The translations under genes were made by a program, and so were the position numbers. Shown piece after piece: positions 12,729 through 49,906 of a stretch of 56,080 bases of DNA (positions within the stretch are counted from its first letter, which is position 1; every line of letters begins with the position of its first letter). The stretch comes from Chromera velia. Taxonomy: Eukaryota. The stretch lies in the NCBI GenBank assembly GCA_018398765.1, contig JAHBMJ010000118.1, positions 1 through 56,080 on the forward strand, read 5' to 3'. The notes under the pieces were generated by a model. It did no database searches. It saw nothing but the letters and a program-made list of their open reading frames with translations, and had not been told where the DNA came from.

Positions 12729-13677
12729 AGGGTGGGGAAGGGTGTACCGCCGTGGAGGGGCTTGAAAGAGTCAAAATGACGGCTTTACAGGCATTGTGCC
12801 TTTCACCTCTCCCTTTTGTCTTTCTATCGTGCCGTTGAATCCACAAATGATAAGCTGCGCATTGAAAGCGATCGATAAGTTTGCTTTTAGAATCGAGTAG
12901 AATCGACTAACAGGAAAAAACAGAATCTTCAGATAAACTAGGTTAAATCCACCCTAATCCGCCCCTTATGTATGGGGACGCGGTATGCACAACAAAACCG
13001 TCAATCATCACTCTACTTTTTTCACACTATATCTTTAACATATGCATTCGGTTCAGTCTAGAAGTTCAGCGTCAAAACTTAATTAGGCTCTCCATCATCA
13101 CTTTAGTTCCTTAGTGATTGTTCTGGACTGTGGGTTGGGGATAGTTGGGGGCGCTGAGTTGGTGCCCGGCTGCGTGCTCCCCCGGAACACTTCGCGCCGT
13201 TCGAGCTCGAGCCCGAGCCGCGCGGGGGCATGCAGCTATGCCGTGCAGATACGTGCAGGTGTTGAATCCTTTGATTGACGTGCCAACATGATCCAACATG
13301 TGCCAACCCGTTGTTACCATTTGTTGCAGTAAATGGAATGATGTAAAATCATGTTTCACAGAACTGTATATAAGACCACAGGATGCCTATTTACTGTTCT
13401 GCATGAACCAATAGATGTGATTGTGATTGTGTACCCGTTCCCATAAGCCAGACGATCTCGTGCCAACTTCTGGTCTTCCAGTCCGAGGATTCCCCTCCCG
13501 TCTCCTTCTGACAGTTCTGACACCCCCCATTCGTCAGAAAAGAGACGCAGAAACGACTCACACGCCTGCGGAGCTCGAGACCAGCTCCTTTGAAAATCTG
13601 ACGAGAGTGGGCAGCACTCTGCCCCTTTCATTCAGAGGTGCACGAATAGAGTGGGAGACGCGTAGACGGCCAGCACA

Positions 13678-14160
13678 ATGTTGACAGTGCAGAACGCGCT
13701 GCAGACGTCTGTCGTCTGTACGTTCGTTCTTTTTTTGAAGCTCCTGTTCAGTAATCTGTATCTGGGGCACACGAAAAATAAGGCGGGGACGAGGGTGGCA
13801 GAGGACACGTATCAGGAGCAGGGCGGAAATCTGACAGCGGACGAGCATGAGAGACGGAAAGAAGCCCAGGATAGGGCACAGAGAGTCGTGTCCAATGACC
13901 TGGAGAATATTCCGATCGGCCTTTTGGTCGCGTGGGGGTCTTTTGATGCGATTTCATACAGCGTTGTGGCAATGGGGAACGAACTTGAAGCTGCGATTGG
14001 CGCCTTCATAGCCCTCCTCGCAGTCTTCACGGGTTGCAGGGTTCTTCATACGGCCATGTACATGAGTGGAATAGGTTTAGCACGAAGTCTTGTCTATCTA
14101 ATAAGCATTTTGTCCCTTCTGGGTCTGGTGATCCTCTCTATGTACGCTGCCTTCAAGTAA
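13678..14160 (+). CDS. MAPEG-family membrane protein (microsomal glutathione S-transferase / prostaglandin E synthase-like), intronless
   Basis: 160 aa from ATG to TAA with four hydrophobic segments. Motifs LFLKL, R.AED, RAQRVVSNDLENIP and RVLHT..Y are typical of MGST1/PTGES. Confidence 0.88.
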   Translation: MLTVQNALQTSVVCTFVLFLKLLFSNLYLGHTKNKAGTRVAEDTYQEQGGNLTADEHERRKEAQDRAQRVVSNDLENIPIGLLVAWGSFDAISYSVVAMGNELEAAIGAFIALLAVFTGCRVLHTAMYMSGIGLARSLVYLISILSLLGLVILSMYAAFK

Positions 14161-23688: not shown

Positions 23689-26600
23689 TCATGCATTTCG
23701 CAGGAATTTAGTTTGTCTGTCTGCCCTCTGAAATCCGGTCTCTATCCAGCGAACTGCAGCCCCCAACTCAGCAAGGCATTCAAGAACGTATTCGAGCTCT
23801 CCCTGCATTCTTGGTTCTGACTTACACTGTTTAGATGCTAACTGGTGCAAGAGGGGCTTCTTTCTCCAAAGCTTACTCATGAAATGTGTGATTCTATATG
23901 CAGCTTTCACGCCCTCCCTCATTGCTAACAACTCTGCTGACGTCGTGCTCCCCAGCTTTCTCGCTTCTTTCTTGGAGTACCACGACAAGGTGTTCTCACC
24001 CCCCACCCGAGCGCCCCCACATTGCTCTGTTGCTCAGCACAGAGCGAAGGGTCAACTTCCTCTTCTGAGGGCAAAAGAAGGTCTCGCTCGGTCAGTGGCT
24101 TTCTGGACTGAGGGGGAACAGAAGAAGCGGCTTCCTGCAAGTAACTCCCTTGGTCAAGCAGCATGCGACCCTCAACCATGCGGACAGACATCCCTATGTA
24201 TGCATGAAGGGATCCATCATCCATCCTCACTGGCTCGTCCATTTCGAAAAGAGAACGAATCGCTTGCATTTCCTTCATCACGTCTGGTGCGAAAGCAAAA
24301 AGGTCGTCTACATGCATCACTAACACACCGACTGGCTTTTTGTTCTTGTCTCTCTTGACCAAAATTGATTCAGCTATCTCTTCCCATCCCAGTTCCTTCA
24401 CTCTCTTCTTGAAGTACTGTGTGTACACGCGAGGGCTATCCTTCAAGCCGTAAACAGCCTTCAGGATGCGCACACACACACCAGGACGCAAACCAGGATA
24501 GACAGAGACAGGCAAGTCAGAAGGGAGTCGAAGCCACACCTCACCATTCTTTCCATCGAGAGGGGCTTGGAGGAAAGCAGTTGAGATATCTGCCTTCGCT
24601 GCCTGAAGCCCACGAGAAAGGGCCCACACAAACGCCGCACGGGAGAGAGAGGAGCTTGCAGTGCCAGAGAAGGTTTCCAGGAAGCCGTTGTCTCTGGCGT
24701 CTTGGAAGCCCTTGGCAACAAGACGGGATTTCGTAACCTGCTCCTCCTCCTTCAGCTTCCACGTGCGTACCCACCGGAGAGTGATTGGCTTCACCCCCGG
24801 TCTCGGGTGCTGCGTCTGACTGGAGAGATCAAAGACACCACACAGAGCCCAACGCACCAATTCTTTCTTGTTGGACTCCACATGACTCCCTGCTGCAATC
24901 TCTTCTGGAGTAGCAGGGATATGTCCTTTTGCATTGTTTTCTCTCTTCATCAGTTTTTTTGCTTTCTCTGCCTTCAAAGCCATGCATACGACTTCGAAGT
25001 GTCTATCTAGCGCTTCTGCTTTCCTCACCTCTTCTCTGGCTCTTCTTTCTTTCTTTCTCTGAAAGATGATTGCTTTCTTCTCTTTCCTTCCTTTGCTTTT
25101 CTAATCGAGAAAATCTGTACGGCAGACCTCCTCTTAAATCTGCTCTACGACTGGGTCAACATCAATCGGCATGACATCGACGTCATCAGGCACAGGATCA
25201 GAAGAGACGACAGCATGGTCAGAGGATGGAAGGGACTCTGCAGAAATATCAGGAGCAGACTGAAGAGGAACAGAGGAGGAAGGAGGGTCAGATTCATCCA
25301 AACGAGAAAGAAGGTCTGCTGGAATGCCACCCCCGACAGGAGGATCGAAACGCTCTACTATATCTTGCTGCTTGACATGATGCTCGATTTCTTTCGGCTT
25401 CCATTTTCCCTTATCGTCTTTATTGAATCTGGCTACCTTCAAGCCTCGCTCTTGCTTTGCTCCTTGTCAAACAATGCGACCAGGCCAAAGGGCACCGTCT
25501 GTGTTCTTTGTTAGCACCCACCTGCCTGCTTGGCGGCGGGGATGCTCATTTCCATTTTCATCACGCAGCTGGAAAGGCTCTGTTTCTGGAAAAGAAGAAT
25601 CAGGCTCGACGTCTTCCCCCCCTGAACGCAAATCAACTGCTGGAACACCCGGACTCTCATGGTCATCATCATGGACAGATGAACGCGGCCATCCACCAGA
25701 CTCCTCTTCAACTTTCTTTTCTTTCCTTACCTCTCTCCATTTCTGTACTTCATCCACACCCAACCACTTCTCAAGCCTGACATGCTGTGGATGCATACGC
25801 AAAGGGACCCATCGACCCCCCCGCAACACAACGAGCGAACAGACCTACGGGCCCTGTACCCCCTCGAAGAGTGCTCGCTCACTCTTTGAAAGAGGGTCCG
25901 CTGAACCTGCGGGATCTATCACACGAACCTCATCCCCCATTGCGATTGGGGGCACTCCACACGCATGACCGAAAATCAAAGAATTGGGAGATATGCCTGT
26001 CTTGCTGTAAACGATATCACCTAACTGATTAGCAACGCCGGAGAGAAAGGCAGGCCAAAAAGAAAGAGGAAGATGGAGCTGAATCAAAGTCTTTCTGAGA
26101 AGAGAGATGACAGTCGAGTTCACACGTTCAACATCTGACTGAACCTCAGGGCTGAAAGGGGGACCCCTCTCATGGTGAAGACCCATGTCATCATACGCCG
26201 CTGCGTACCCAATCTCGTCTTCTTCTCCGACGAACTCACCCCCGTTGTCTGTCCGAACGATAAGGGGCTTTCCGAAACCGTGAACCTGCCATCTGCGCAC
26301 CCACTGACGAAGGTGCTGCACTGCGTGGCGCTTTCTGCGAAGTGCAAAGAGAGAAACTTTCTTGACCCCACCACAAACGATCACCGAAATGTAGCGAAAT
26401 CCTCCCACGCCTTTCGTCCGCATCTCCTTCAAGTCATGAAAGATGACTTGGTTGAAGGGGGCGCGCTCCTTTGCATGCTGCGGCTGCTTCGACTTTTCAG
26501 CTGGCTTGTCACCCTTGGCTGCGGATGAGGTTTTCTCTTCAATAGAAAAACGAACACGCTTTACTGCTTGCTTCTTCTCTCCCGACTTTTCCTTTTTCAA

Positions 26601-27722
26601 AATCCCTTTTGCAGGGATCCTTTCCTTTCTCTGATTGACTGACTTGCATGCTTCGCACAAATCCCTCACATCTCTACACTCTTGAGGAGAGAAGGAAAGA
26701 GGCACTCCTTTTTCTTCTAGAGTCTTCTCAAGACGAGCGCTCACGGAATGCGCAAGTCGGGAATGCAACACATAGAGCAGGTGTTGCTTCCTCTCTGCAA
26801 GAAGGGTTTCTGTGGAACGAGCCTCTGCAGAGAGAGAGGAAGAGTAGAAAACTTTCTTCTTCCAGGCATCAAGGGGTGCAGTCATCTGCGCGGCTGCTGC
26901 TGCTTCATCGTTTTGGCAGAGACGGAGGGCTGGCATCCGTCCCAATCGCTCAACGGGGGCCCGAAAGCTCCTGCCCTCGGTGTCAGTCAACCTGACATAG
27001 CTGCGACGCCTCCGTCTCTTCGAAAGGAAAATCTCCTTCTCTGCACAGGGGAGGAGACCTCTGCCTACGGAAGGGTGAATAGCCCCCTCCTCAGGAACCT
27101 TCCTCACCTTCCCGAACTCATCTCGAACAGGGAAGTGGAAGAGGTGCACGTTGTCAGTGACAAAAGGAGACGCTTCGGGGCCACCCTTTGCGGTAAGGTT
27201 AAACTCCATGCGCCTTTTCTTCTGACCGACCGAGTACTTTGCAAACTCCTCATTGAGTAGTCTGAACGTACAGCCGGTGTCTGGCAGCAACTCGTCGTCT
27301 GCATCTGCTTTCGAGAGAATGCGCGCTCTCGAAGTTTTTGTCTGCACACGAAAAGCACAAGAAAGAGAAGGTGTAGCACCCAACTCTTTGGATGCAGAAG
27401 TTGCTGCCGTTGCTGTTGACAATGAATCGACTGACTGGGGGAGCTTAGTGGCCTTGCCTTGCCGAGGTCCATTGAAGCGTCTTGCTTCCCTGACGGATGC
27501 CCTCGGTCCTGCGACCGCTCCCACCGGTAGTGCTCTCCCAGGCCAGTGCATGTTCCGGAACGTCGCCCGAACCATGCGTACATATTCTCTTGGGACCTCT
27601 TGACCCCGGAAATCCTTCACTGCTCCCTTTCCCTGTCGTCCCCTCAAAGAAGAAACAACAAAGGCAGGTTGCAGTCGCTCATTCAGACTGGAGGTCTCGA
27701 AAGACCCACCTGACCGGCTCAA
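23689..27722 (-). pseudogene. pol: copia pol (protease, integrase, RT, RNase H) with in-frame stops and deletions
   Basis: PR LPDTGCT; HHCC LHSRLAH..CEAC; IN FHDLKEM / RTDNGGEF / ERVNST; RT KSRLVAKGFQ, DISTAFLQA, KAVYGLKDSP, HVDD; RH SWYSKK..STTSAEL. One frame from 27722 to about 24000, with stops at about 25845, 25467, 25134 and 25101. A deletion/frameshift falls at the RT-RH junction near 24005. Confidence 0.92.
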
Positions 27723-28963
27723 AAAACTAAATCACAGTCTGAGCCCAAGTCGCTCTCCACCAGATCGGGATAGGAGGACTCGGAATCAGAGCGGTGGGAG
27801 GAGGAAGGTGAACTGCGGGAACGCCGCTCAGCGGGGCGTCCACTCTCCTTCTTCCCCATGGGAGAGTTCTTCTTCTTGGGGCAGCACCGGGCGAAGTGAC
27901 CAGTCTTTCCGCACCCCTCCCACTCGGTCTTGCACTCGCTCTTGGAGGCGGGGCAGTAGTCTGGGCTGCGGTGAACGAAACCGCAGTTGTTGCACCTCGT
28001 TCCCTCTGCTTTGCCTGCAGTCTCTTCAGACGGCTTCACCTGCTGCTTTTTCTTCTTCCCCTTGGGCTTCTTTGCACCCTTCTTTCCGAAATCCCGCTTC
28101 TCAGCGGCACCCCCGAACTCATGTCCACTCCCCGACTCCCTCTTTGAGCCCTTGGACTCAGCACCGTGAAGAGCGGACTTGTAGGCGAGTGCGTCTGCCT
28201 TGCGGTCGGCAAACGGACGGATGTCGGAGTAGGTCAAGGAGTCGATGTCTTTTTTCAACTCCATCGCGGCCTTCTCTGCGATGTCTGTCTACTCATGGGT
28301 GAGGAACAGACGCTTCACGCAGAGCTTCTTCGTGTCCTTGTCCGTTGGAGTGAAGCCCTTGGCACCGGAAGAACGAATGACCTTGTCCAGTCTACGCAAC
28401 ACTTCCTTCAGTGTCTCCCCCTTCTCCTTCTCACGGCGAAGAGAATGGAAATTCTCCTCAGTGATGGTCTTCTCGACAGGCTTGTCCTTCAAGTAGTGAT
28501 TGATCACGGTGTCGAGCAATTTGTCGGTCTCATGACCCTGGGCTGCTGCTGTGTAGACGTCTTTACGGAGCTCTTCAAAGTCCGAAAAGGTATGGAGCAG
28601 GGCGCACTTGTAGATCTCGATCAGGAGGTTGGCATCAGGGTGATACCGGGAGGACAGGAAGAGGCTAGACTGTGTCTTCCAGTTATCCATCCAGTTGTCC
28701 AGGTGGGTAGCCTTCAGCGACTTCACCTTGGGAACCCAGGAGAAATCAGGCGGCTTCAGAGCAGCCGGGGGAGCAGAAGATGCAGCTGCAGCAGAAGTTT
28801 GAGCCGACTGGCTCGCCATCAGCAAGCTTAGCGCCTTGGCCAGATCCGCCTCCAGTTTAACAATCCTCTGCTCCTGCCAGCCTGCAGTATTGGAAGCAGA
28901 AGAAGAAGACTTATTGCCCGCGTCTGAGGCACCAGTGTTAGGGTTCGGGCCTGAGTCAGACAT
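27719..28963 (-). pseudogene. gag: copia gag with Cys/His knuckles and one in-frame TAG (28289-28291)
   Basis: ORFs 28289-28963 and 27719-28264 share one frame. Motifs CNNCGFVH...C and C..CGKTGHFARCC. Confidence 0.88.
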
Positions 28964-29452
28964 CGGCGCAACAGTCTGTACACAGGAACTGAGACTGGAG
29001 GAAGTAGGCTAGGAAGCAAGCCGACAGCGCTAGGCTAAGTACAAAGCAATGATAGTAGAAGCAGCGTACTCAGAACATTCAACGTCAAGAAGTCTGGATC
29101 TAGAAGGACTGACCTTAATCCCAGTATTCCGACTTCTATCTTCTCAATCTGTTGCCGTCTACGTTGTGTCGATCGAGAGGATGCGACTATTCAGATCGAC
29201 ACATCACATGCACACAGAATCGGCTGTCTCTCAATCGGCTAATTACCGACTGTCATGAATCGGATCTCTTCGTTCACTGTTGTCACGAAGAGGCAATCAT
29301 TCAATCATTCACGTCTACATGTACGTAAATAAAATCTGCATGCATGCATGTATCGACTCGCGCATGCAAATCGTTAGATCATCATGGGCGGCGGCGGCGG
29401 GCGTCGCGCATACAGTGGCCCACACGTCCATCCACCCCTGCGCGCACTAACA
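28936..29452 (-). repeat. 5' LTR (517 bp); contains the gag ATG at 28963
   Basis: Starts TGTTAGTG and ends CCCTAACA on the minus strand, followed by C-TGGTGCCTCAG (PBS-like). Confidence 0.93.
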
Positions 29453-31420: not shown

Positions 31421-32933
31421 ATGACAGAAAAAATTCTGATTATCTCCGGCGTGCCCAGTGGAACTGGCGGCTAGTACACGCAGCTGAAATCTCAAAACGA
31501 CGGCCGGATGGCTTTCAAGAACCAGAGCTCGAACCTGTACCTCTACTGGAAGAACTTCGCAACCGGAGGGATGGGCTGGCACATCTCCGACCAGCTGGGG
31601 GGGACGGGCATCTATACCTACTGTGATGAGGATGTGCCTGACCCCCGACAGACCAAGGCCCCCTTTAAGGGGTGGAATCTGGAAGAGAACAACTTTGTTG
31701 ACTATCCCGCGACGATCAAGGAGATGGAGGTCGGGGGAGGTGCAACAAAGAAAGCCGCCCCCCGCATTGTGCTGATGGGTCGCGAAGGCCCCAATTCGCT
31801 CATCAATGGGGGGTATGAGAAACTGAAGGAGGACTACAACAGCAGACCTGCCTACAAGTTCGGTCCCTACAACGGCAAGGAACTGTTTCTCTTCTTCAAG
31901 CAGGGAGTGTGGCGTGTTGCCGACTCCCTTGGTGACGACGCCAAGTATGCCTCCAACCCCGACATGTCCGCCCTTCTTCCTGAACAAATGGACGAACCCT
32001 GGGATATCGCGGACGGACCCCGGATGGTCAAAGACAAAAGTCTGCGTGTTGAGGTCTGGTCCAAAAAGCGCTGGACAGCTTCTGAGGTTCGTGACGGCTA
32101 CATCGACCATGAATTCAAACCTTGCCAGAAGTCGGTGGGGTTCAAGGAACCGACCTCATGGATGCGGGCCTCGCAGCTCTGCTACGACAAGGGCATACCG
32201 TACACGCAGCTGTTTGAGGGAGTGGACCCGGGCGACCTCATTCAAGGCGACCTGGGAAATTGCTGGTTGATAGCCTCAATGGCCGCAGTCGCTGAGTTTC
32301 CGTGGGCCATTAAGAGGCTCTTCAAGACGAACCAGTTCAACCCAACAGGAAAATACGAGATCCAGCTCTACGACGTGACAAAGAAGGCCTAAGTCTGGTT
32401 TACCATTGACGACTACATACCCTGTGAAGAGATGCAATGGTGGATGAAGAAGGGGAGGCCGAGGTTCGCCAAACCGGTTGGCAACGAACTCTGGTGCATG
32501 TTGCTCGAGAAAGCGTTCGCCAAATTTTTCGGCAGCTACGAAAGTCTGGTGGGTGGTATCTGCAGCGTTGCATTTCAGTGTCTCACAGGGTCTGCCGAGC
32601 AGTTTGTGTGGGACAAGGAGGGGGGAAAGTTGAGGTGGGAAAGGGGAAGAGTAGCGGTGGAGGAGCAGACCAGAAGGAGAACCATAGTGACGACATTCGA
32701 GCCAGACCAGTTTGCAACAGACGAGGAACTTTTTGAGGTCTTCCGGGAATACGACAAGAAGCACTTCATCATCTCATGCTCTATCTCTGCTGGTGAGCCT
32801 CAGTCGCATGCATGCGGTCCTCTCCTCTGTTGTTCTAGCTCGATCGCCAATGTGGTGAGTGAGGCCATGCACCGCTTCGATCCTCTGTACACCCACTTGC
32901 GTGGACTCTCTCTCGCCCGTTCTGTCGCTCTCA

Positions 32934-33018
<85 letters not shown>

Positions 33019-33196
33019 TGTGTGTCTGTGTGTCTGTGTGTGTTTGTGTGTGTATGTGTGTGTCTGTCTGTCTGTCTCCCTCTCCCTTTCCCTCTCCCTC
33101 TTTTTCTCTCTCTCTGTTTTCCTGTCTCCCTGCCTCTCTCTCTCTCTCTCCCTCTGTCTGTCTGTCTGTCTGTCTTTCTGTCTTTCTGTCTGTCTC

Positions 33197-33227
<31 letters not shown>

Positions 33228-33273
33228 GAAAGGAAGCGATTCGGAAAAAGTGAAGTGAAGAAAAGACGATATA

Positions 33274-33339
<66 letters not shown>

Positions 33340-33631
33340 GTTGACGATATAGTCTGTCTGTGTTGTCTGTTGTGTTCATGAAGAAAAGAAGGGAGAAGAA
33401 GAAACATATAGTCTGTCTGTCTGTCTGTCTGTCTCTCACCTTTCGGGCCCCCTGCCCACGTTGTTTGATTGTTGGTACTGTTCTTTTGTCTTTGTTCTTT
33501 CTTTCTTTTTGTCTGTTGTGTTCATGAAGAAAAGGACGGACAAGAAGAAGAAACATATAGTCTGTCTGTCTGTCTGCCTGTCTGTCTATCTGTGCGTCTG
33601 TCTGCCTCTCTGTGTGTCTGTCTGTCTGTCG

Positions 33632-33670
<39 letters not shown>

Positions 33671-34342
33671 GCGTCGTCCATCCACATCCGTGCAGGGGAG
33701 GAAAAGACCCGCCCCGACGGACTGGTGGAGGGACACGCGTACTCGATGCTCCAAGTCGCCAGCCTTCCCCACCACGGTAGGTTGAAGCTCTGCAAACTGC
33801 GTAATCCATGGGGAGGAGGGGCGACGCACGAGTGGAACGGAGACTTCTCCGACACCTCCAGCGGCTGGGGGGATCAACTGAGCGGCCTCCGGGAAGAGCT
33901 GAAGGCCGTGATTGAGCACGATGGAATATTCTGGATGACCTGGTCAGATTTCACGGGCATCTTCAACCACGCGTGTATGTCTCCACGTTCCATGGCGAAA
34001 GAGAGTGTGGAGTCTGCAGCTGTGGGGTCTTCTGCGTATCTCAACGGCCCCGGAATGAAGGAAGACATGGGGTGGGACAAGAACGACGAGAAGGCAGAGT
34101 GGGATGACAAGGGGTTGGAAGAACCAAAGGGGGACTGGAAGGAGGAAGACTTGCAGCCACAAGCGGGGGGACAGAATGTGGAGGACCACTTTACGGGAGA
34201 GGGCGAGTACGAAGACCCGGCGGACTTTGATGACGGAGGGAACAAGAAAGAAGGAGGGAAGTCGACGCACAATGTTATCGAAGGCGAAGCCAAGGAAGCA
34301 AAGGAGGTTGGGCCCCCCTCAGTGAAGGTGCCAGCTGTTTAG
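31421..34342 (+). pseudogene. Calpain-like (CysPc, peptidase C2) gene, exons 31421-32792 and 33696-34342, with in-frame TAG (31472) and TAA (32390)
   Basis: Catalytic motifs QGDLGNCWL, GHAYS and LRNPWG, plus LWCMLLEKAFAK.GSY and DGIFWM. The phase-1 GT-AG intron joins correctly. The frame continues across both stops. Confidence 0.88.
32936..33670. repeat. CT/GT/GTCT compound microsatellite in the calpain intron
   Basis: Seen directly. Confidence 0.9.
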
Positions 34343-41361: not shown

Positions 41362-44300
41362 CAATTTCTCTTCAGGACATCTCATTCAGTGAGTGGCTCC
41401 GCTGCTACCGCCTTTTCCTTTGCGAGAGGCCTATGGCATCAACAACCTCTAGGAAACCTTCTTCTTCTGAAGAAGAAGAAGAGCAGACGGGGGGGGTGGA
41501 GGAGACGGCAACGGGAGCTTTTGTGCAGCAGAAGGAGAGGGAGAAAAGGCAAAGCAGTCGAATGCCGAAAGGATTGGAATTTCTTGATCTCGGGATGCAC
41601 AGGGAGAACAAAGAGATGAAAAACAAAAAGTCAAACACCGTCAACACAGATCAAAAGAGGTCCGCAAATTCAAATCTGCTGGTTTTTCTTTTCGTCCCCC
41701 CCTGTTTGTTTTCTTTCTCTTCAACTAGAATACTTTGGAGGGCTTTTCATTGAAAAAGAGTCGAACGGCCTGATTCTCATCCACAATAGGTAAAAGAGAG
41801 CTTTTCTTTTCTCGCCCCTCCCTGAGTTGCTGGACTGATTTTATTGCCTTTTCCTTCACTTCAGGTGGCGCGCCATGGCGAGGAAGGTTGAGTACCTCTC
41901 CGACTTTGTGCACGAACACAGAGAGGTCCTCAAAGGACTCCCGAGCGCATTCGATCCTCGAACTGGACTGTCAGTCAGTCCGTCACTCAGTCAGGCCGTC
42001 GGAGCCAATGTGATTAATCGTCTTCCGTTTGGTTTTTCAGAGTCTCGACGCTGGGTTTCTTTGTACATTTTTGCATGCTTGTATCTCGCTGCTCAACTTT
42101 CTGTGTTTTGCTTCCTTCTGCGTCTTTGCATTTCGTTGTCAGGAGTTTGTCTTCGGTCGGTCGCTCTGAAGCCAGAAGGAAGGCCGCCTCGCCTCTTCCT
42201 GTCCCCTCTGGGTTTGTGTTGCTTCTTTTGTCTGTCTGTATGTATGTATGCGTGAGCTCGCGAATGGCGAATATATTTTTGGGTGTTTGAATTAATGTTT
42301 TCTTTCTTTCAGAGGAGCGCTGACTCGAGAGGCCGCCGAGAAGCTGTCCGACTGCTTTCCCTCATATGCCGTGAAGGACCAGGGACAGTGTGGGTCCTGC
42401 TGGGCAGTCGCGGCAACCTCCGCGTTGGCAGATAGGGTCCGTGGGTGGGTGGGTGGGTGGGTGGGGGGGAATCTGACGAGAGGATGATCGAGTGTGATTT
42501 TGAGCAGTTTTGTGAGGGGTGCCGCTTCTTTGTGTGCGGTTTTGTGCTTTTGGTTATTGTGTGCTTCTTTTTCTTTTTCTGCTATCCACCCCTCTTTACT
42601 CTCGCATGACTCTTTGGACGTGGTGGTCTCCTTCGTTTTGATCGATCCGCATGACGTTTAAGAAAGTATCTCCATCCGTATCATTTGGCCTGAAGCCTTT
42701 GCTGCGTGCGAAATTACAGAATGCTTAGAAGAAGGAAACAGCTAAACGACATTGATATGGTAGTTCTAAGTACAAACAGTTTAATTCCGGTGCTTTAAAT
42801 TCTGAAATTAATCCTGCATGCAGCAATGCATAAAGGACAAGGGCACTTTGATCGACGGGCATGCGCACTCGTTCTCGACTGAGCAGGCGATCTCCTGCGG
42901 ATTCAACCACAAACCCTGCCAGGGGGGGTTCCCCACTGACGTGTACATGGAGGGAGTCAGAGACCCTCTCCAATTAGAGGCAAATTATCCCTATGTCTCC
43001 AAGTAAGTGGGTCTGCCTGGTTTTTCTGTCGAAGAATCCCTAGCTCTTTCATTCACAAGCTACCTGACTGACTGTGAAACCACCAATTCGATCACCTATT
43101 TATCTGCTGAACATTTGACTGTCGGCCAACCTACCTGTATGTCGATCTATCTGGATCTATCGATATTTCCATGCGTTCGTTTTCCTCTCAATTTCCAGCC
43201 CCAGCTTGAGTTCACGATGTTACTCAGATGCTCTTCCCGCTAGAACGCCGATCATATCTGAAGAAGCCGTCCTCCGATGCACAAGCGTTATTCTAGTGAC
43301 TGACTGACTGTATGATGCATGCAGATGCGACCGAGCCGAGATGGGAGTTGTGCAGCCGATGCACTGGAGCAACTGCAAGGCCCTCGCGTCGATGCCTCTG
43401 ATCACTCGGCCCTGTGAGTGCCAGCACGAGAGCCTGGATCCCGACTTCAAAGAGGGGGTATTCGGGGCTCAGTGCAGGGAGAAGACCCTGGCCAGAAAGC
43501 ACTATCCGTACAAGGTCGGTCGGACATCCTAGCTGTCGTTCAGCGGACATCCCGTCGTTTTTCTTTTTCCTTTTTTGTTTCTATCCGTACAAGGTCGGTC
43601 GGACATCCTAGCTGTCGTTCAGTGGTGCCAGTGGGACGAGGCACTCGTTGGCTGACAAGTGTGGAGGGAATACTGCTGCTCTAAATGAACCTATCTGCCT
43701 CATCAATTGGTTTGTCAGAGAAGGAGAAACAAGTCACACTGAAGTCTTCCGCGAAATAAAATTAAGGTCCCACTCTTTTGCTTCTCCTTAATGTATCTTG
43801 AGGGTGAAAGCGAGAGTCAGCAGGTAGGTAGGCGAACATAAACATTACTATTCGCATACACACTGATTTAATCATCAAATGACTGCAGGTAGAGGACTAC
43901 TTCCACATCGCCTTCCCCGAGTGTCAGGAAGTGAACGCTCCCCGCAGGTGCAGAGAGAGAGTGGTGGACAAGGGCCTGAAGAGGCCTGTCTCCATCAGGA
44001 ACGTCGAGATGCACATCCAGGCACAATTGGTTTACAACGGCCCGCTGGTGGCCACCTTTGTGGTGTATGAGGACTTTGACTTCCATGTCAAGAATGGACA
44101 CAAGGTGAGGGAAGAGAAGGGAAAGAGAAGAGAATCGTCGTTCCTCTAGACTCCTTTGGTGATGCATTGATATTTTGCTTTTGTCGGTTGCTGTTTGTGA
44201 CTCTGTCACTCTGTCAGTGACCGTGACAAAAAGGAGGCGTCGACAAATGAGGGTAGGCGTCCAGTGTAGGTGGCCTCTCCTTCTTCCGGGGAAATGAACT

Positions 44301-45322
44301 TATGCAATTTTACAAGACGGGTTCTCCCCTTCGCTACATTTTTTTGAGCCGCATTTTCTCTGCTTTACGGATACAATTCCCTCACATTCTAGATAAAATG
44401 ATTGTGTATATTTCTCGAACGAACAAAAGTCCACGCATGTACCCTCCTCTCCAACTCCCCCCCCTCCGACAATTACCCAACCATGCAGGTTTACCGGTGG
44501 GACGGCCGGTCTCCCAAGAAAGGCATGCACGCAGTCGAACTGGTAGGGTACGGGACGGAAGGAAGAACAAAGTACTGGCTGGCAAAGAACTCATGGGGAG
44601 AGGAGTGGGGGGACGGGGGGTATTTCAAAATCGTCAGAGGTACGCAGGTCCTTTTTTTTTGTTGCTTTCTTTCTTTTTTTCTTTCTTTCTTTCTTTCTTT
44701 CTTTCTGTCTTTCCTTCGTTTCATCTGAAGGAGCTCTCTTCTTCATTTGGTTGAATCGGGTGGCCGCTCGAGGTCTGGAAGGATGGCAAAGAAACTCCGA
44801 GGGAACGCTTTTCAAAGGGTCAAATGAAGAGATGGACGATCACGCAGTGATCTCACTTGAGAGTTCTTAACCTGTCATCGCTATGAAAAAAGACAAGTGG
44901 GAACGCATGAGCGAAGGCAGCAGGAAGTGCACTTGCTTATGTGAACGTGTGTGTGTGTCTTCTCGAACGCAGGGGAGAATCATGTCGGTATTGAGGAAAG
45001 AGTCAGTGGAGCCTATATGGCAGGGGCAGCTGATGCTCCTCGAAGAGAGCACCCAGAAAAGGACTCGTATGCAATGGAGGTGAGTGAGTCAGTGAGTATT
45101 TCTCTCTCTCTTTCAATGCAGTCATGCAATACCAAACAAAACACCTTTGCTGGTCGTCTCTCTCCGTTCACGGGCCGCAGCACCTGAAAGATTTCGATGT
45201 TGTTTTTGCTTAGAGAAGCTGCTCGAACCAGCGTCAGAGTTCCTTCCTGGCTGAGTGTCGTCGTGTCTACCCCCTCTTCCAATCTTGTGCCTCACCCCCT
45301 TCCCTTCCGCCGTCATTCTCCG

Positions 45323-45364
<42 letters not shown>

Positions 45365-46837
45365 TGCATGTGTGTGTCTCTGCTTCCTTTTGTTTCTTTC
45401 ATCGGCTCGGCCACCCATGATACGACAACCACTTATTGCCTGTATGTGCAGTTGGAGGTGATGGACATCTCTGCCTTTGTAACAGCGGGGAGATCAGGAA
45501 AGCACCGGACGGGTGTCTACATGAAGTGCCAACCCGAGTGCGAGATCAACCAGGCGTACAGAAACCAAATGGCCGGGGCCAGGGTCACAGAGGAAACCTC
45601 AAACACAGAACCGGAAGGGGTATGTATTTGTGTGTTTTCAGTTTGTTTTGTCTTTCTGTCTGCATCTTTGTTTCTGCCTTTTCCTCTCTCTTTTCCTGTA
45701 TATCTCATTTGTCTCTCTTCCCACCTTCAGTTTCTAAATTTGTCCTTCAGCCAGAACAAACACAGGTCCATCGACGAACTCTATCATCACTACAGTCACC
45801 CTCTTCATGCATCGTATTTCCCTCGAGTGCAACCATACAGAGAGTGCGTGCATGCTGGGAGGGAGACAGCATGATTTAATTGCAGCAGGCCTTGAAAGCA
45901 AAACACTCACTCACTTAAGTTCTTTTCCCTATCTCCCTCACTCACACACTCCCTCCCTCCTGTTGGAGATCCCTCCATCCAGGTCGGTTCCACCAAGCTA
46001 CGCATTGACCTCAACCCTCAGAGCTGTGGGAAGTCCGGGCACAAGAGGGCAGTGATCGCTTTGCAGCAGAAGGCCTACAAGTCTGCTAAGCGATTCTACG
46101 TGGTCAGTCAGTCACTCGCAGTCAGTTAGTCAGTGAGCCAATCAGTCGGAAAGTCAGTCAGTCAGTCAATCAGTCAGTCAGTCAGTCAGTTAGTCAGTCA
46201 GTCAGTCAGTCAGTCAGTCAGTCAGTCAGTCGGAAAGTCAGTCGGGTGATCAAGTGACCAGAAGATGCAGAGACCATAAAAGAGACGATGAAAGTTTGAC
46301 AAGCAAGTTGATTAAAGAATGTCAGGAAACGAACAAAGAGCAGGAAGGAAAAGGAGCAAGAGACGGCCAGATAGAAAGGGCGGAGTTGATTGATGAAGAA
46401 CACATGCATGCTAGTGGCCAGTCGGTATGTATGTCTTCTGCTCTTGCATGCGATTCAAAGGGCTCTTTGACCGATTGATCAAGGCAGTCTGTGGGGAATA
46501 CGTTGAGCGACTCCGAGGACCTTCTGCAAAATGCTCAGGAACCGCAAACTAAAACAGTAAATCAATGGGCTGGATCGATCGCCTTATGAGTCTCACTTGA
46601 AGCTCACTAAAGATTCTCGTCATAACATTCAACTATGTGTGCCGCTGTCTGTTTGCATTTGTTTGTCCGCAGATTGATTACTTCTGTGATGACTATACGA
46701 TCCAGCACAGACTCACAGAGAGAAGCTGCCAGGAAAAGACGGACCGTTCTGTGAAGGGCAGGTCCCTGCAGACTCTGTCGAAGACCTGTTGGAACACCCA
46801 ACTGATGGTCATCAACGAGAAGTTCCTTGGAAATTGA
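37400..46837 (+). CDS. Large secreted cathepsin-B-like papain-family (C1A) cysteine protease with long N- and C-terminal extensions; many exons
   Basis: MALTK (37400-37414) | signal-like [26 protein letters not shown] (37734-37823) | 38266-38813 | ... LPSAFDPR (~41938) | [11 protein letters not shown] (Cys 42398-42400, missed by the ORF track) | CQGGFP | [14 protein letters not shown] | HAVELVGYG...[20 protein letters not shown] | ENHVGIE. The final exon and stop at 46837 are tentative. Confidence 0.85.
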
Positions 46838-47484
46838 GTGAAAGAAACTGAGTGAGGGAATGGAAAGAGAAAAGAGGAAGGCGATTTCTGTCATTCATTT
46901 GATGGTTGACAGATGGAGAAGCGAGGTGGAAACGGATAAGTTTGATTGCTAAGACTAAGAGAGAAAGCGAAAGAAAAGCCTGCAGAATGGGGATCGGGCA
47001 GGGTAGGATGAAATTCTTTCAAGGCTATCATGCAGTTTTGCTTAATCGTGAACCGCAATACGCTCTCTGTAGCAGGCAGACTGAGAAAAAAAGGGGATCG
47101 GGAAGGGACACGTCCGGGAAAGAAGGGCACAGGGTTGGGTAAGGAACATGAGAAAAAGTTGGGTAAGTCACGGGAATAGAGCATTCCGTTTTATTTTATC
47201 GGACTGCGTCCATAAGTTTAAGGGGAAACAGCGTTGATGTACGTTCTGTCGTACGCTGTCGAAGCATTTCAGTTTGAATAAGAAAGACGTCGGAAGAGCA
47301 ATTGAAATAAATTGAAGCGAAAGATTACAACAAGGAAAGTATCAGGTGGAAAGGGCATAAATTTGAGGCAAAAGTTTGGTTTTACTATTTAGATGCACAC
47401 GAAAAATACGTTTTCCTAATTTCCAATTTGAATTGAATCCTAATTTTCCAATTTGAAACAATTTAAATTTATTTTTTTTTTTCT

Positions 47485-47515
<31 letters not shown>

Positions 47516-48293
47516 TCTCTCTCTCTATGTATATATATATAATATAATATAATATAATATATTATTATATATATATGTCAAAAACTTAATGTAGAAACAA
47601 GTTGTATTTCAAGTAGGTTTTGCGTCTAAACATTTTAAAACTCAAAAGTTTTACATTTGAACACCAATTAGTTTCATATCTATACATCATTTAAGTTAAA
47701 AAAATTGAACTAGAAATAGAATTAGATTAAAATTTGGATTTCAAAATTGAAATTGCAATTTTCCAATTATATATATTTAATTCTTACGTATTTTTCGATA
47801 AATTGGATTAGGTGCTTCTTACGTATGAAAAAACAAAAAACAAGGTAAGCTATAGGAAAGAAGATGAAAAAAGGGAATAAAGATGAGAAGAATTAAAGAA
47901 AAAGAGAAAAAAAGAAAAGAAAGATACTGCAAGAAGTAACAAAAAGTCTATTTCTATAAAGCCTTCAAATAGAATCAAACTTAGGATGCTCGATACAGAC
48001 TCCTCATAGCTCCTTGCATGCAGAGTAGGAAAGCCTTGCTGACAGTCGCTGCGCAAATTTTTGGTCGGTCAGACCCAAATGAACCGATGATTAATGGAAT
48101 GTGGTACGACTTGGACTCTTGGAGTCTGCCGAGAACACGTGTAGCGCTCCTGTTCCTTTTCAAAAGAAACATGAAAAGAGGCTCCCTCTACAACACTCTG
48201 ACGTCGCGCTGCAGGCGGGGCGATCACTTAGTCTGAAAGCATAGTCGCAAAGCTCACTTGTTCGTAACCTCTTCGAGTCGTGTCAACCTTCGT

Positions 48294-49169
48294 TCATTTG
48301 CCAGAGCGTTCTTTGCGTGGTCGAAATCCAATTTGAAAGTTGTCTATCCCCAGATACTCATCATACTCACCGAAGCTTGTTCCCTTAAGAGAGAGAGCCG
48401 TGAGATACTGAAGTCTGTCCGCTGCCTCTTTCTGTTCTTTGAGCCTGTGTGCGTCAACAAACTCCTGCCGCTCGGCGCGGCTAAAGGCACCAGGTTCGGT
48501 TATCTTTTTGATAAGTCTCAGCCGATCCGTCTTTCGGATCATGTATCCGTGTTCTGCCCATCTGTTTTCCTGATCCATCAGCGGGTACATCCACGCAGCG
48601 ATAGCATTCACCTCTTCGCGTCTTGTGTACCCCAGATACCAGCAACTCTTCCGGGCGCCGATGTTTGTACGGCTGTAACTCCCGTTTAGCACCTGCTCCC
48701 CAATGGCACTCCTGATCTCTGTCAACAACTCTTTGCTGCCTGACACAAACGAAAGAGAAGGGTATGGACCCGAAAAGCCGGCGCACCCGTCGCCCTCAAA
48801 TATAGCTCTGACCAACTCGGAGAGAAGAGATGGCTCGATGCCCTCTGGCATCAACACATCAAAGGACTTCCTGCCTGGCTCACACTTGAGAATGGTGCGG
48901 GCGTCTCTCGCGAGTTCGGACGAATACGGACGCAAACGCGCATAGGCTGCTCCGTCGGAGCAATAAAATTTGATAGGGTGCTCAGAACCCAGCTCCTTTC
49001 GAATGTGAGCAACCCACTTGCAGTCGAGATGTTTTTGGGTCCAATTGAGGTAATGAGGACCGACATACCCATCAGACATCAACGCACCCCATACCCAGGC
49101 TTGCTTTCCACTGCGGATGCCGTCTCGGAAGTAGCTCTGGTTGACGAAATACCTTCGAAGTCCGCCCAT
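48294..49169 (-). CDS. Free-standing double-motif LAGLIDADG (DOD/intein-type) homing-endonuclease-like protein, intronless, 291 aa
   Basis: Motif 1 AWVWGALMSDG and motif 2 LVRAIFEGDG lie about 90 aa apart. They are preceded by YFVNQSYF and followed by LSFVSGSKELL and WMY...RK, the pattern of bacterial/phage free-standing LAGLIDADG proteins. ORF is intact from ATG to stop. Confidence 0.82.
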   Translation of the reverse strand: MGGLRRYFVNQSYFRDGIRSGKQAWVWGALMSDGYVGPHYLNWTQKHLDCKWVAHIRKELGSEHPIKFYCSDGAAYARLRPYSSELARDARTILKCEPGRKSFDVLMPEGIEPSLLSELVRAIFEGDGCAGFSGPYPSLSFVSGSKELLTEIRSAIGEQVLNGSYSRTNIGARKSCWYLGYTRREEVNAIAAWMYPLMDQENRWAEHGYMIRKTDRLRLIKKITEPGAFSRAERQEFVDAHRLKEQKEAADRLQYLTALSLKGTSFGEYDEYLGIDNFQIGFRPRKERSGK

Positions 49170-49906
49170 TTTTCTTCACTGATTTCCCGCGGAGACGGAC
49201 ACAAAGGAGAGAGGATACGTAGACGGTTCAGCGTCAGAGCCTGAGAATTTTAGAGACACCAAACAACATGTGACTGTCAGAAACATTGGTGACGGCTGAT
49301 TATGCCACTGATGAGTGCCTGCCATGTGCCTGCCACACACACACAATCTGCCGCTCATCTCCATATACAGGCCCGAGGCGTTCCACACATCTCCGGTTGA
49401 AATCGGTTGAATCCCCGTCACCCGGCGGGCCCGATTCATCTTGCTTCGATACGTACCATTCGAATCGTACCTGCACGTACCTTGCATGCTTCCGTTCAAT
49501 GAAAAATGATCATGCATTGTCGATGCATTGTCGTTTTTTTTTTTTCTTTCGTTTCTCATGTTTTTTAATTTTTTTTTTTTTTTTAAGCAAGGAAGAGTTT
49601 AAAAAATTGCATGTTGCATGCATGCATGTTCTTTCGTTGCATTCTTCTTTAGTGTCTCTCTGGTCCTGTGTATATATACATGCATAGTGTCAGACTGTCT
49701 CTGAGAGTCTGCAGTGAAAAGCAGGAGCGTGACTTTCCCATAAAAGATTATTTCCCCTAGAAGAGCCTCGCTCCCTACCTCTTCAGTCGATACGCGGACT
49801 CCACAGTTCCTGTCAGACTCAATTGGGTGTTCGAATACTTAAAGACATTGAGGCCGAAGCGGATCTTTTCAGGTTCTGCTCGCACAAAAGCAACTGTTGC
49901 AAGACT

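What the first reader, a model, noticed from the sequence alone, without database searches (positions are those of the whole stretch)
48294..49169. Intact free-standing LAGLIDADG homing-endonuclease gene in a nuclear intergenic position
Seen: both motifs keep the acidic catalytic residue (..SDG, ..GDG). The ORF is intronless in an intron-rich region, and I see no surrounding rRNA/group I intron, intein splicing motifs, TIRs or organellar DNA. Established: LAGLIDADG genes normally sit in introns, inteins, organelles or phage; free nuclear examples such as yeast HO/WHO are rare. Inference: a horizontally acquired, possibly domesticated nuclease or an undescribed homing element.
Basis: partly seen in the sequence, partly recalled or inferred. 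Interest (0 to 1): 0.78.

Follow-up and report, generated by a model that had tools for sequence, protein, structure and literature searches.

The report
Phage-type meganuclease gene in protist nucleus
A protist, likely the alga Chromera, carries an intact, unspliced, transcribed nuclear gene for a phage-type LAGLIDADG protein predicted to cut DNA; its closest named relatives are a multi-copy family in foraminifera, so it is likely a captured selfish enzyme now kept by eukaryotic hosts.

Summary
48294-49169(-) encodes a 291-aa two-motif LAGLIDADG protein: PHROG 4645 E=6e-12, AlphaFold pLDDT 89, and the 22 best PDB fold matches are all LAGLIDADG. D33, D127 and K101 are intact. The gene lies between a papain-family protease gene and a GRDP-like gene, with no intron, intein, rRNA or WHO-like target fragment. 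DNA depth is single-copy, and RNA contigs from a second strain cover it unspliced with the frame intact.

New here: it belongs to a distinct clade (99/94 support) with its own C-terminal helical tail. The only named members (5 of 28 looked up) are foraminiferal transcripts. Most rows of the foram-containing subclade have mitochondrial-like leaders; this copy has none and branches earlier. Short DNA matches suggest a diverged second copy in this genome. The host is likely Chromera velia (inferred).

Best reading (0.42): a horizontally acquired meganuclease kept for a host role. Rivals: a selfish intergenic homing gene (0.3) or a passenger insertion (0.2). Cleavage, target and location are untested. 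I found no description of the family in six literature searches.

The parts
48294..49169 (-). ORF, 291-aa monomeric two-motif LAGLIDADG protein (P0001)
49068..49091 (-). LAGLIDADG motif 1 (residues 27-34) with predicted catalytic D33
   Evidence: D in 28 of 29 family rows that cover the column
48786..48812 (-). LAGLIDADG motif 2 (residues 120-128) with predicted catalytic D127
   Evidence: G-D-G in 39 of 39 family rows
48297..48557 (-). Family-specific C-terminal helical tail (about residues 205-291), shared with the foraminiferal family and absent from the phage and bacterial relatives tested
   Evidence: Tail HMM built without P0001 gives 18.3 bits against a best of 8.9 in 1000 shuffles; best of 53 viral/prokaryotic loci is 1.9 bits
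49170..49398 (-). 5' leader of at least 229 nt, unspliced in RNA contigs. It holds six upstream ATGs, four of them in frame and closed by a TGA at 49176-49178. It supplies no targeting peptide unless the TGA is read through.
47990..48293 (-). Likely 3' UTR, reached by RNA contigs of X4, X5 and X6 (ends at 47990-48022)
49400..49755 (.). Short divergent intergenic region shared with the right-hand gene; holds two overlapping TGCATGCA motifs (49615, 49619), a motif found 33 times in the window; likely a host-type promoter
   Evidence: the promoter role is inferred
47577..47960 (.). AT-rich (24% GC) stretch downstream of the gene, likely a dispersed repeat; link to the insertion not shown
   Evidence: depth 79.9 against 27 and loose ends at 47627 in X1
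43325..47390 (+). Left neighbour (tail to tail): spliced papain-family, cathepsin-B-like protease gene, probably one transcript; stop at 46835-46837, 3' UTR to about 47390
   Evidence: joints, translation, PF00112 E=2.5e-17
49823..50428 (+). Right neighbour (divergent): 201-aa ORF, GRDP-like by Atlas features (score 0.87, a lead only)

Best explanation
This is an intact, unspliced, transcribed nuclear gene for a two-motif LAGLIDADG protein that was likely acquired horizontally, is predicted to be an active rare-cutting DNA endonuclease, and is probably kept for a host role rather than for its own homing. Shown: the ORF, the fold, the conserved active-site residues, single-copy depth, transcription without splicing, presence in two strains, and membership of a clade whose named members are foraminiferal. 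Inferred steps: (1) a phage-type HTH-LAGLIDADG gene lost its N-terminal HTH and gained a C-terminal helical tail; (2) this leaderless form entered eukaryotic nuclear genomes, perhaps through a virus; (3) here it came under a host-type divergent promoter; (4) the 33-kDa basic protein (pI 9.2) would bind a long asymmetric site as a monomer and cut both strands using D33, D127 and Mg2+, starting recombinational repair, most likely in the nucleus because it has no leader; (5) in the foram-containing subclade a basic leader was added later, which would redirect copies to mitochondria.
For: Constraint: P0001 keeps the family residue at 37 of 46 columns that are at least 80% conserved, but at only 31 of 169 variable columns, on a terminal branch of about 1 substitution per site. 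Residence: GC 52% and GC3 58%, against GC3 53-72% in four window ORFs; no viral genes beside it. One contig in each DNA run matches only the motif-2 helix and the tail helix at >=85%, which suggests a diverged second copy. The second strain (X4-X7) carries the gene with no stop or frameshift listed. Host role in the family: 17 of 26 rows with a complete start have a leader of 12 aa or more, and 14 of these 17 have at most one acidic residue, against a mean of 3.5 acidic residues in the first 30 of 78 outgroup rows. A nuclear gene whose product goes to mitochondria cannot home, yet these copies keep both catalytic aspartates. No target-gene fragment lies near the gene.
Against: No activity, target or localisation was measured. 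No close orthologue exists among 1.84 billion representatives (best 40% identity), so any host role is lineage-restricted. The constraint could have acted in the donor before transfer. Listed strain differences in the ORF are 4 replacement and 2 silent (pN/pS about 0.57, P=0.40 under neutrality) against 5 and 3 in the neighbours, which is uninformative. This copy lacks the leader, so the mitochondrial argument applies only to its relatives. The leaders were judged by composition, not with a targeting predictor.
Confidence: 0.42

Rival explanations
1. It is a selfish free-standing homing gene. It would cut alleles that lack it, at a site in or near a neighbouring gene, and be copied in by gene conversion during sex, like the intronless homing genes of phages.
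For: Invariant catalytic residues with variable DNA-binding strands; patchy distribution; no introns; multiple divergent copies in foraminifera and a likely second copy here; no leader; 51 of 53 viral and prokaryotic relatives lie in stop-to-stop frames of 500 aa or less, that is, not in long intein-bearing frames.
Against: No empty allele in the two strains seen, which is too few to exclude one. No WHO-like duplicate of a neighbour's 3' end. Host-like base composition. Relatives with leaders suggest that the family persists without nuclear homing.
Confidence: 0.3
2. It is a passenger: a virus-derived or prey-derived gene that inserted, is transcribed from the neighbour's bidirectional promoter, and has not yet decayed.
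For: The strain SNP ratio does not differ from neutral. Six upstream ATGs could suppress translation. Giant viruses carry free-standing proteins of similar fold (BFVD ranks 3, 5 and 8). No orthologue was found.
Against: Host-like base composition, no flanking foreign genes, an intact frame in two strains about 1% apart, and a second copy alike only in conserved protein patches. The SNP test has almost no power.
Confidence: 0.2
3. The protein works as an RNA maturase or nucleic-acid-binding factor, like OTP51 or intron maturases, rather than as a DNA cutter.
For: LAGLIDADG folds are reused in this way (OTP51 passage). Both myzozoan and retarian mitochondria have fragmented rRNAs.
Against: Both catalytic aspartates and K101 are nearly invariant in the family. 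There is no PPR domain and no leader in this copy. The word 'intron' occurs only once in the Retaria mitogenome paper, and none of the passages I saw describes mitochondrial introns.
Confidence: 0.06
4. The ORF is a contaminant or a chimeric join.
For: No single Logan contig links the ORF to both neighbours; contigs break at simple repeats (47456-47577 and 49524-49642), and both DNA runs may be the source of the assembly.
Against: Depth over the ORF contig is 27.1 against 23.7 and 35.6 on the flanks in X1, and 13.9 against 10.8 and 17.1 in X2. The ORF contig carries the host TGCATGCA motif. A second strain shows about 1% differences in both this gene and its neighbours.
Confidence: 0.02

Closest known systems
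Free-standing phage/bacterial LAGLIDADG_3 endonucleases (PHROG 4645, Pfam PF14528), also seen as folds in giant viruses
   Same: Two-motif monomeric core, the same N-terminal segment before motif 1, acidic motif ends, stand-alone ORF.
   Different: Only 25-36% identical. P0001 lacks their usual N-terminal HTH or zinc-binding extension, has a family-specific C-terminal tail, and sits in a eukaryotic nuclear locus.
Foraminiferal LAGLIDADG family (EukProt Bolivina argentea, Nonionella stella); not found in print, noted in earlier scan reports
   Same: One clade (99/94); hhalign probability 99.95, E=4e-38 over residues 3-261; shared tail and CEPxRKxFD-type segment.
   Different: At most 40% identical. 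It branches outside the 20-row subclade (98/92) that holds every named foram row, has no leader, and is at low copy number in a host that is likely an alveolate.
Yeast HO and WHO elements (PMC7282813 and bioRxiv 10.64898/2026.08.13.744650; abstracts and outlines seen)
   Same: Stand-alone nuclear LAGLIDADG genes; a precedent for both homing and domestication.
   Different: WHO and HO are intein-zinc-finger fusions, and WHO elements carry a replacement 3' end of FBA1. Neither feature is present here, and the ancestry is phage-type rather than intein-type.
OTP51 (plant nuclear PPR plus two LAGLIDADG motifs; passage in PMC8393795) and bacterial WhiA
   Same: Host genes built on a LAGLIDADG fold; WhiA structures are among the fold matches.
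   Different: No PPR domain here and the catalytic acids are retained; that WhiA lacks them is recalled, not from a call.

Membership tests
LAGLIDADG endonuclease superfamily (two-motif monomer) | Two LAGLIDADG helices, each followed by an alpha-beta-beta-alpha-beta-beta-alpha domain | tested here: met
   Model pLDDT 89; VIA-align Z 16.1, rmsd 2.6 over 179 residues to PI-PfuI, and all 22 chains with Z>=8 are LAGLIDADG-fold
LAGLIDADG endonuclease superfamily (two-motif monomer) | Acidic residue at the end of each motif | tested here: met
   D33 and D127 present; conserved in 28 of 29 and 39 of 39 family rows
LAGLIDADG endonuclease superfamily (two-motif monomer) | Pfam LAGLIDADG_3 gathering score | tested here: not met
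   16 bits against a cut-off of 22.5; PHROG 4645 matches at E=6e-12
Homing endonuclease (functional) | Site-specific cleavage of an element-free allele and gene conversion | not testable with these tools
   No assay; no empty allele in the two strains seen
Intron-encoded homing endonuclease | Embedded in a group I/II or archaeal intron of a host gene | tested here: not met
   0 Rfam matches at E<=1 in 44000-54000; RNA contigs show no splice around the ORF
Intein-encoded endonuclease | In-frame fusion with Hint domains and exteins | tested here: not met
   The stop-to-stop frame is 293 aa and is filled by the nuclease and its tail
WHO/HO elements | Intein-zinc-finger fusion protein | tested here: not met
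   No Hint or zinc-finger match in Pfam; 291 aa only
WHO/HO elements | Carries a replacement 3' end of the target gene beside it | tested here: not met
   blastn and tblastx of 47300-49800 against the window found only short low-score matches
Foraminiferal-type nuclear LAGLIDADG family | Clade with the foram proteins, apart from phage and bacterial relatives | tested here: met
   99/94 for 27 rows against 20 outgroups; 0.93-0.98 in a 144-row FastTree
Foraminiferal-type nuclear LAGLIDADG family | C-terminal helical tail | tested here: met
Foraminiferal-type nuclear LAGLIDADG family | Basic, acid-poor N-terminal leader (most members) | tested here: not met
   Six residues precede the domain; the in-frame TGA upstream is retained in the second strain

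The most novel reading that the evidence does not exclude
An undescribed family of phage-derived, catalytically intact meganucleases has colonised protist nuclear genomes across SAR lineages by horizontal transfer. The leaderless copy here is the early, nucleus-acting stage: a free-standing homing gene or HO-like recombination initiator in a photosynthetic relative of apicomplexans. Foraminifera then added mitochondrial leaders and expanded the family into a diverse set of nucleus-encoded cutters aimed at mitochondrial DNA, for example to settle mitochondrial inheritance or conflict.
Probability: 0.25. Interest if true: 0.82.

Novelty: new variant of a known kind. Interest (0 to 1): 0.58.

Why it matters
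Stand-alone nuclear LAGLIDADG genes with intact active sites are known mainly from yeasts (HO, WHO), and those derive from inteins. This is a second, phage-derived route into eukaryotic nuclei. It links a likely chromerid to foraminifera and appears to capture a step before a mitochondrial leader was gained. The gene can be tested directly, because it is small, the host is probably culturable and a cleavage assay is routine. The family would also be a source of compact, highly diverged meganuclease scaffolds.

Tried and rejected
No whole genome was held, so copy number and the second copy could not be read directly. The single-sequence fold failed (pLDDT 36); the alignment-based fold was used. 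PDB sequence searches gave nothing relevant, and NCBIfam gave only a spurious weak hit. Word-indexed searches are insensitive for this family: one search returned only the query, and one search returned 8 hits and missed most known members. Locus scans found no family member with DNA context: viral contigs gave 0 with P0001 and 49 distant loci with A2, metagenome contigs 1 and prokaryotic genomes 4. The best of the 53 viral and prokaryotic-genome loci scored 111 bits on the family HMM, against 209 for P0001. The run search listed no holder on record as RNA; RNA status was judged from spliced contigs. X10 did not cover the gene or most of the region, which is no evidence either way. Strain SNP ratios were uninformative. 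A spliced-on presequence was looked for and not seen: contigs of four runs cross the upstream region without a joint. TIR or transposon context was rejected. A bacterial promoter was rejected (1 site against 1.9 expected). An AU test did not reject P0001 as sister to the whole family (p=0.43), so no donor or direction is claimed. Ancient SAR inheritance with many losses was considered less likely than transfer but is not excluded. Literature searches found no description of this family in the listings; the library lacks most subscription papers. 12 of 16 supplements of PMC4501334 had no 'LAGLIDADG' or 'homing'; files 13-16 were not searched.

Full report
Observation. The minus-strand ORF 48294-49169 gives a 291-aa protein. 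Pfam LAGLIDADG_3 is sub-threshold (E=0.015), but PHROG 4645 matches residues 5-196 at E=6e-12 and the ESM Atlas places it among LAGLIDADG clusters by features and by structure. A model built on a 35-row alignment reached pLDDT 89 and pTM 0.89. All 22 of 48,161 PDB representatives with Z>=8 are LAGLIDADG folds; the best is PI-PfuI at Z 16.1, rmsd 2.6 over 179 residues, and the next unrelated chain scores 3.8. Foldseek agrees. Its best viral matches are free-standing phage proteins plus three giant-virus proteins.

Locus. The gene lies tail to tail with a spliced papain-family protease gene and head to head with a GRDP-like ORF (a lead only). There is no Rfam match, no room for intein domains, no convincing inverted termini, no copy of a neighbour's exon and no second remnant in the window. 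Two DNA runs hold the ORF with no differences and at the depth of the flanks (27.1 against 23.7 and 35.6; 13.9 against 10.8 and 17.1). Their contigs break at simple repeats on both sides and they may be the source of the assembly, so the joins themselves are not independently shown.

Transcription. The runs X3-X7 are only guessed to be RNA. In X4-X7 the neighbours' contigs skip GT..AG introns (8 joints), so these are RNA. They cover the LAGLIDADG gene in unspliced pieces between 47990 and 49377. X3 covers 48095-49398 in one 1328-nt contig with no differences, but it shows no splice joint in the region, so its RNA status rests on the guess. Contigs do not give the strand or level of the RNA. 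X4-X7 differ from the window at about 1% of sites in this gene and in both neighbours, which indicates a second strain that carries the gene. The six listed differences in the ORF are four replacements and two silent, with no stop or frameshift; the neighbours show five and three, so this says nothing about selection. The 5' leader of at least 229 nt has six upstream ATGs; four are in frame and end at a TGA three codons before the start, which the second strain retains.

Host. Window GC is about 49%, the spliced introns are 363-580 nt, TGCATGCA occurs 33 times, the DNA runs assemble to 196 and 201 Mb, and the protein is in UniRef and EukProt. This fits Chromera velia (193.6 Mb, 49% GC; PMC4501334, passages and supplementary file 10). 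That TGCATGCA is typical of apicomplexan-related genomes is recalled. The species is an inference; no call named it.

Relatives. phmmer over 1.84 billion representatives gave 416 hits at E<=1e-3, of which 150 were listed; the best is about 40% identical. About 45 of the listed hits form a separate group. I looked up 28 of them: five are named, all foraminiferal EukProt transcripts (three Bolivina argentea, two Nonionella stella), and 23 are unnamed ENA, Logan or NCBI contigs of 0.8-27 kb. A search with one Bolivina protein returned 13 of 134 candidates, seven of them EukProt entries at 44-100% identity, so the family is multi-copy there (species not shown for five of them). These transcriptomes come from wild cells and could include other organisms (my own knowledge). 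In a 144-row FastTree, P0001 falls in this group (0.93-0.98; 14 partial or spurious rows left out). In a 48-row IQ-TREE (27 family rows, P0123 and 20 outgroups chosen by me), the family has 99/94 support. P0001 lies outside the 20-row subclade (98/92) that holds all named foram rows, beside a six-row subclade (100/99) whose five rows with a complete start have no leader. An AU test does not reject P0001 as sister to the whole family (p=0.43), so neither donor nor direction is shown. A tail HMM built without P0001 scores its tail at 18.3 bits (best of 1000 shuffles 8.9) and none of 53 viral or prokaryotic loci above 1.9. The tail is therefore a shared derived feature.

Constraint and leaders. 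P0001 keeps 37 of 46 strongly conserved family columns, against 31 of 169 variable ones; D33 (28 of 29), D127 (39 of 39) and K101 (39 of 39) are near-invariant. Of 26 rows with a complete start, 17 have a leader of 12 aa or more and 14 of those have at most one acidic residue. This resembles mitochondrial presequences by composition only. P0001 has no leader. On the tree the leaderless state looks ancestral, which is an inference. At 85% likeness, one further contig in each DNA run matches two short parts of the ORF in order, about 59 nt in the tail helix and 34 nt in the motif-2 helix, at single-copy depth. This suggests a diverged second copy that I could not read.

Mechanism. By established LAGLIDADG chemistry (my own knowledge), a two-motif monomer with both aspartates binds about 20 bp and makes a staggered double-strand break. 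I favour a captured nuclease kept for a host role (0.42), because the relatives with leaders keep their active sites although they could not home in the nucleus, and because this copy looks long resident. Selfish intergenic homing (0.3) fits the invariant active site, the patchy spread and the lack of a leader, and two strains cannot exclude empty alleles. A transcribed passenger (0.2) cannot be excluded, because the constraint may predate the transfer. A maturase role (0.06) and contamination (0.02) are unlikely.

Comparison and novelty. It works like a free-standing phage LAGLIDADG endonuclease. It is not an intron-encoded or intein-encoded enzyme and not a WHO/HO element (abstracts and outlines). 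OTP51 is the nearest precedent for organelle-directed reuse (PMC8393795 passages). Foram mitogenome papers (PMC13421374 and PMC10127745, passages) describe reduced genomes with fragmented rRNAs; LAGLIDADG appears once, in a reference title, in the first, and 'endonuclease' does not occur in the second. Six searches (listings only unless named) found no description of this family; one listing (PMC7593156) reports a mitochondrial homing gene inserted in a nuclear genome. Two earlier scan notes describe what appears to be the same family in other genomes; they are AI notes and not independent support. Verdict: a real gene, a new variant of a known kind, interest 0.58.

Noticed in passing
window 48391-48449 and 48793-48826 (approximate): One extra contig in each of DNA runs X1 and X2 matches these two patches at >=85%, suggesting a diverged second copy of the gene elsewhere in the genome.
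   Followed up: partly
window 49176-49364 (-): An in-frame upstream ORF of up to 62 codons ends at a TGA three codons before the start; read-through would add an N-terminal extension with a short hydrophobic stretch. No evidence of read-through.
   Followed up: partly
window 47340-47960: AT-rich stretch (24-31% GC) split by poly-C and AT microsatellites; raised depth and loose ends in X1 suggest a dispersed repeat; no long ORF under tables 1 or 4.
   Followed up: partly
window 23925-29008 (-): Ty1/copia-like retrotransposon: RVT_2 E=1e-20 and rve E=4e-6, with gag-like ORFs upstream.
   Followed up: no
window 31475-34342 (+): Calpain-family protease gene (Peptidase_C2 E=6e-14), interrupted by long microsatellite-rich stretches.
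   Followed up: no
window 13666-14160 (+): MAPEG-family membrane protein ORF (E=1e-14).
   Followed up: no
window 53840-54928 (+): Cys-rich ORF ending in tandem 14-residue repeats.
   Followed up: no
window 45452-46837 (+): The papain-family gene appears to continue into a C-terminal extension of about 150 residues over three exons; whether it is one transcript with the protease exons is not proven.
   Followed up: partly
proteins P0016, P0028, P0035, P0039, P0057, P0088 (and P0051): A well-supported leaderless subclade of the family from unnamed ENA/Logan contigs; its host or viral source would show how the family travels.
   Followed up: partly
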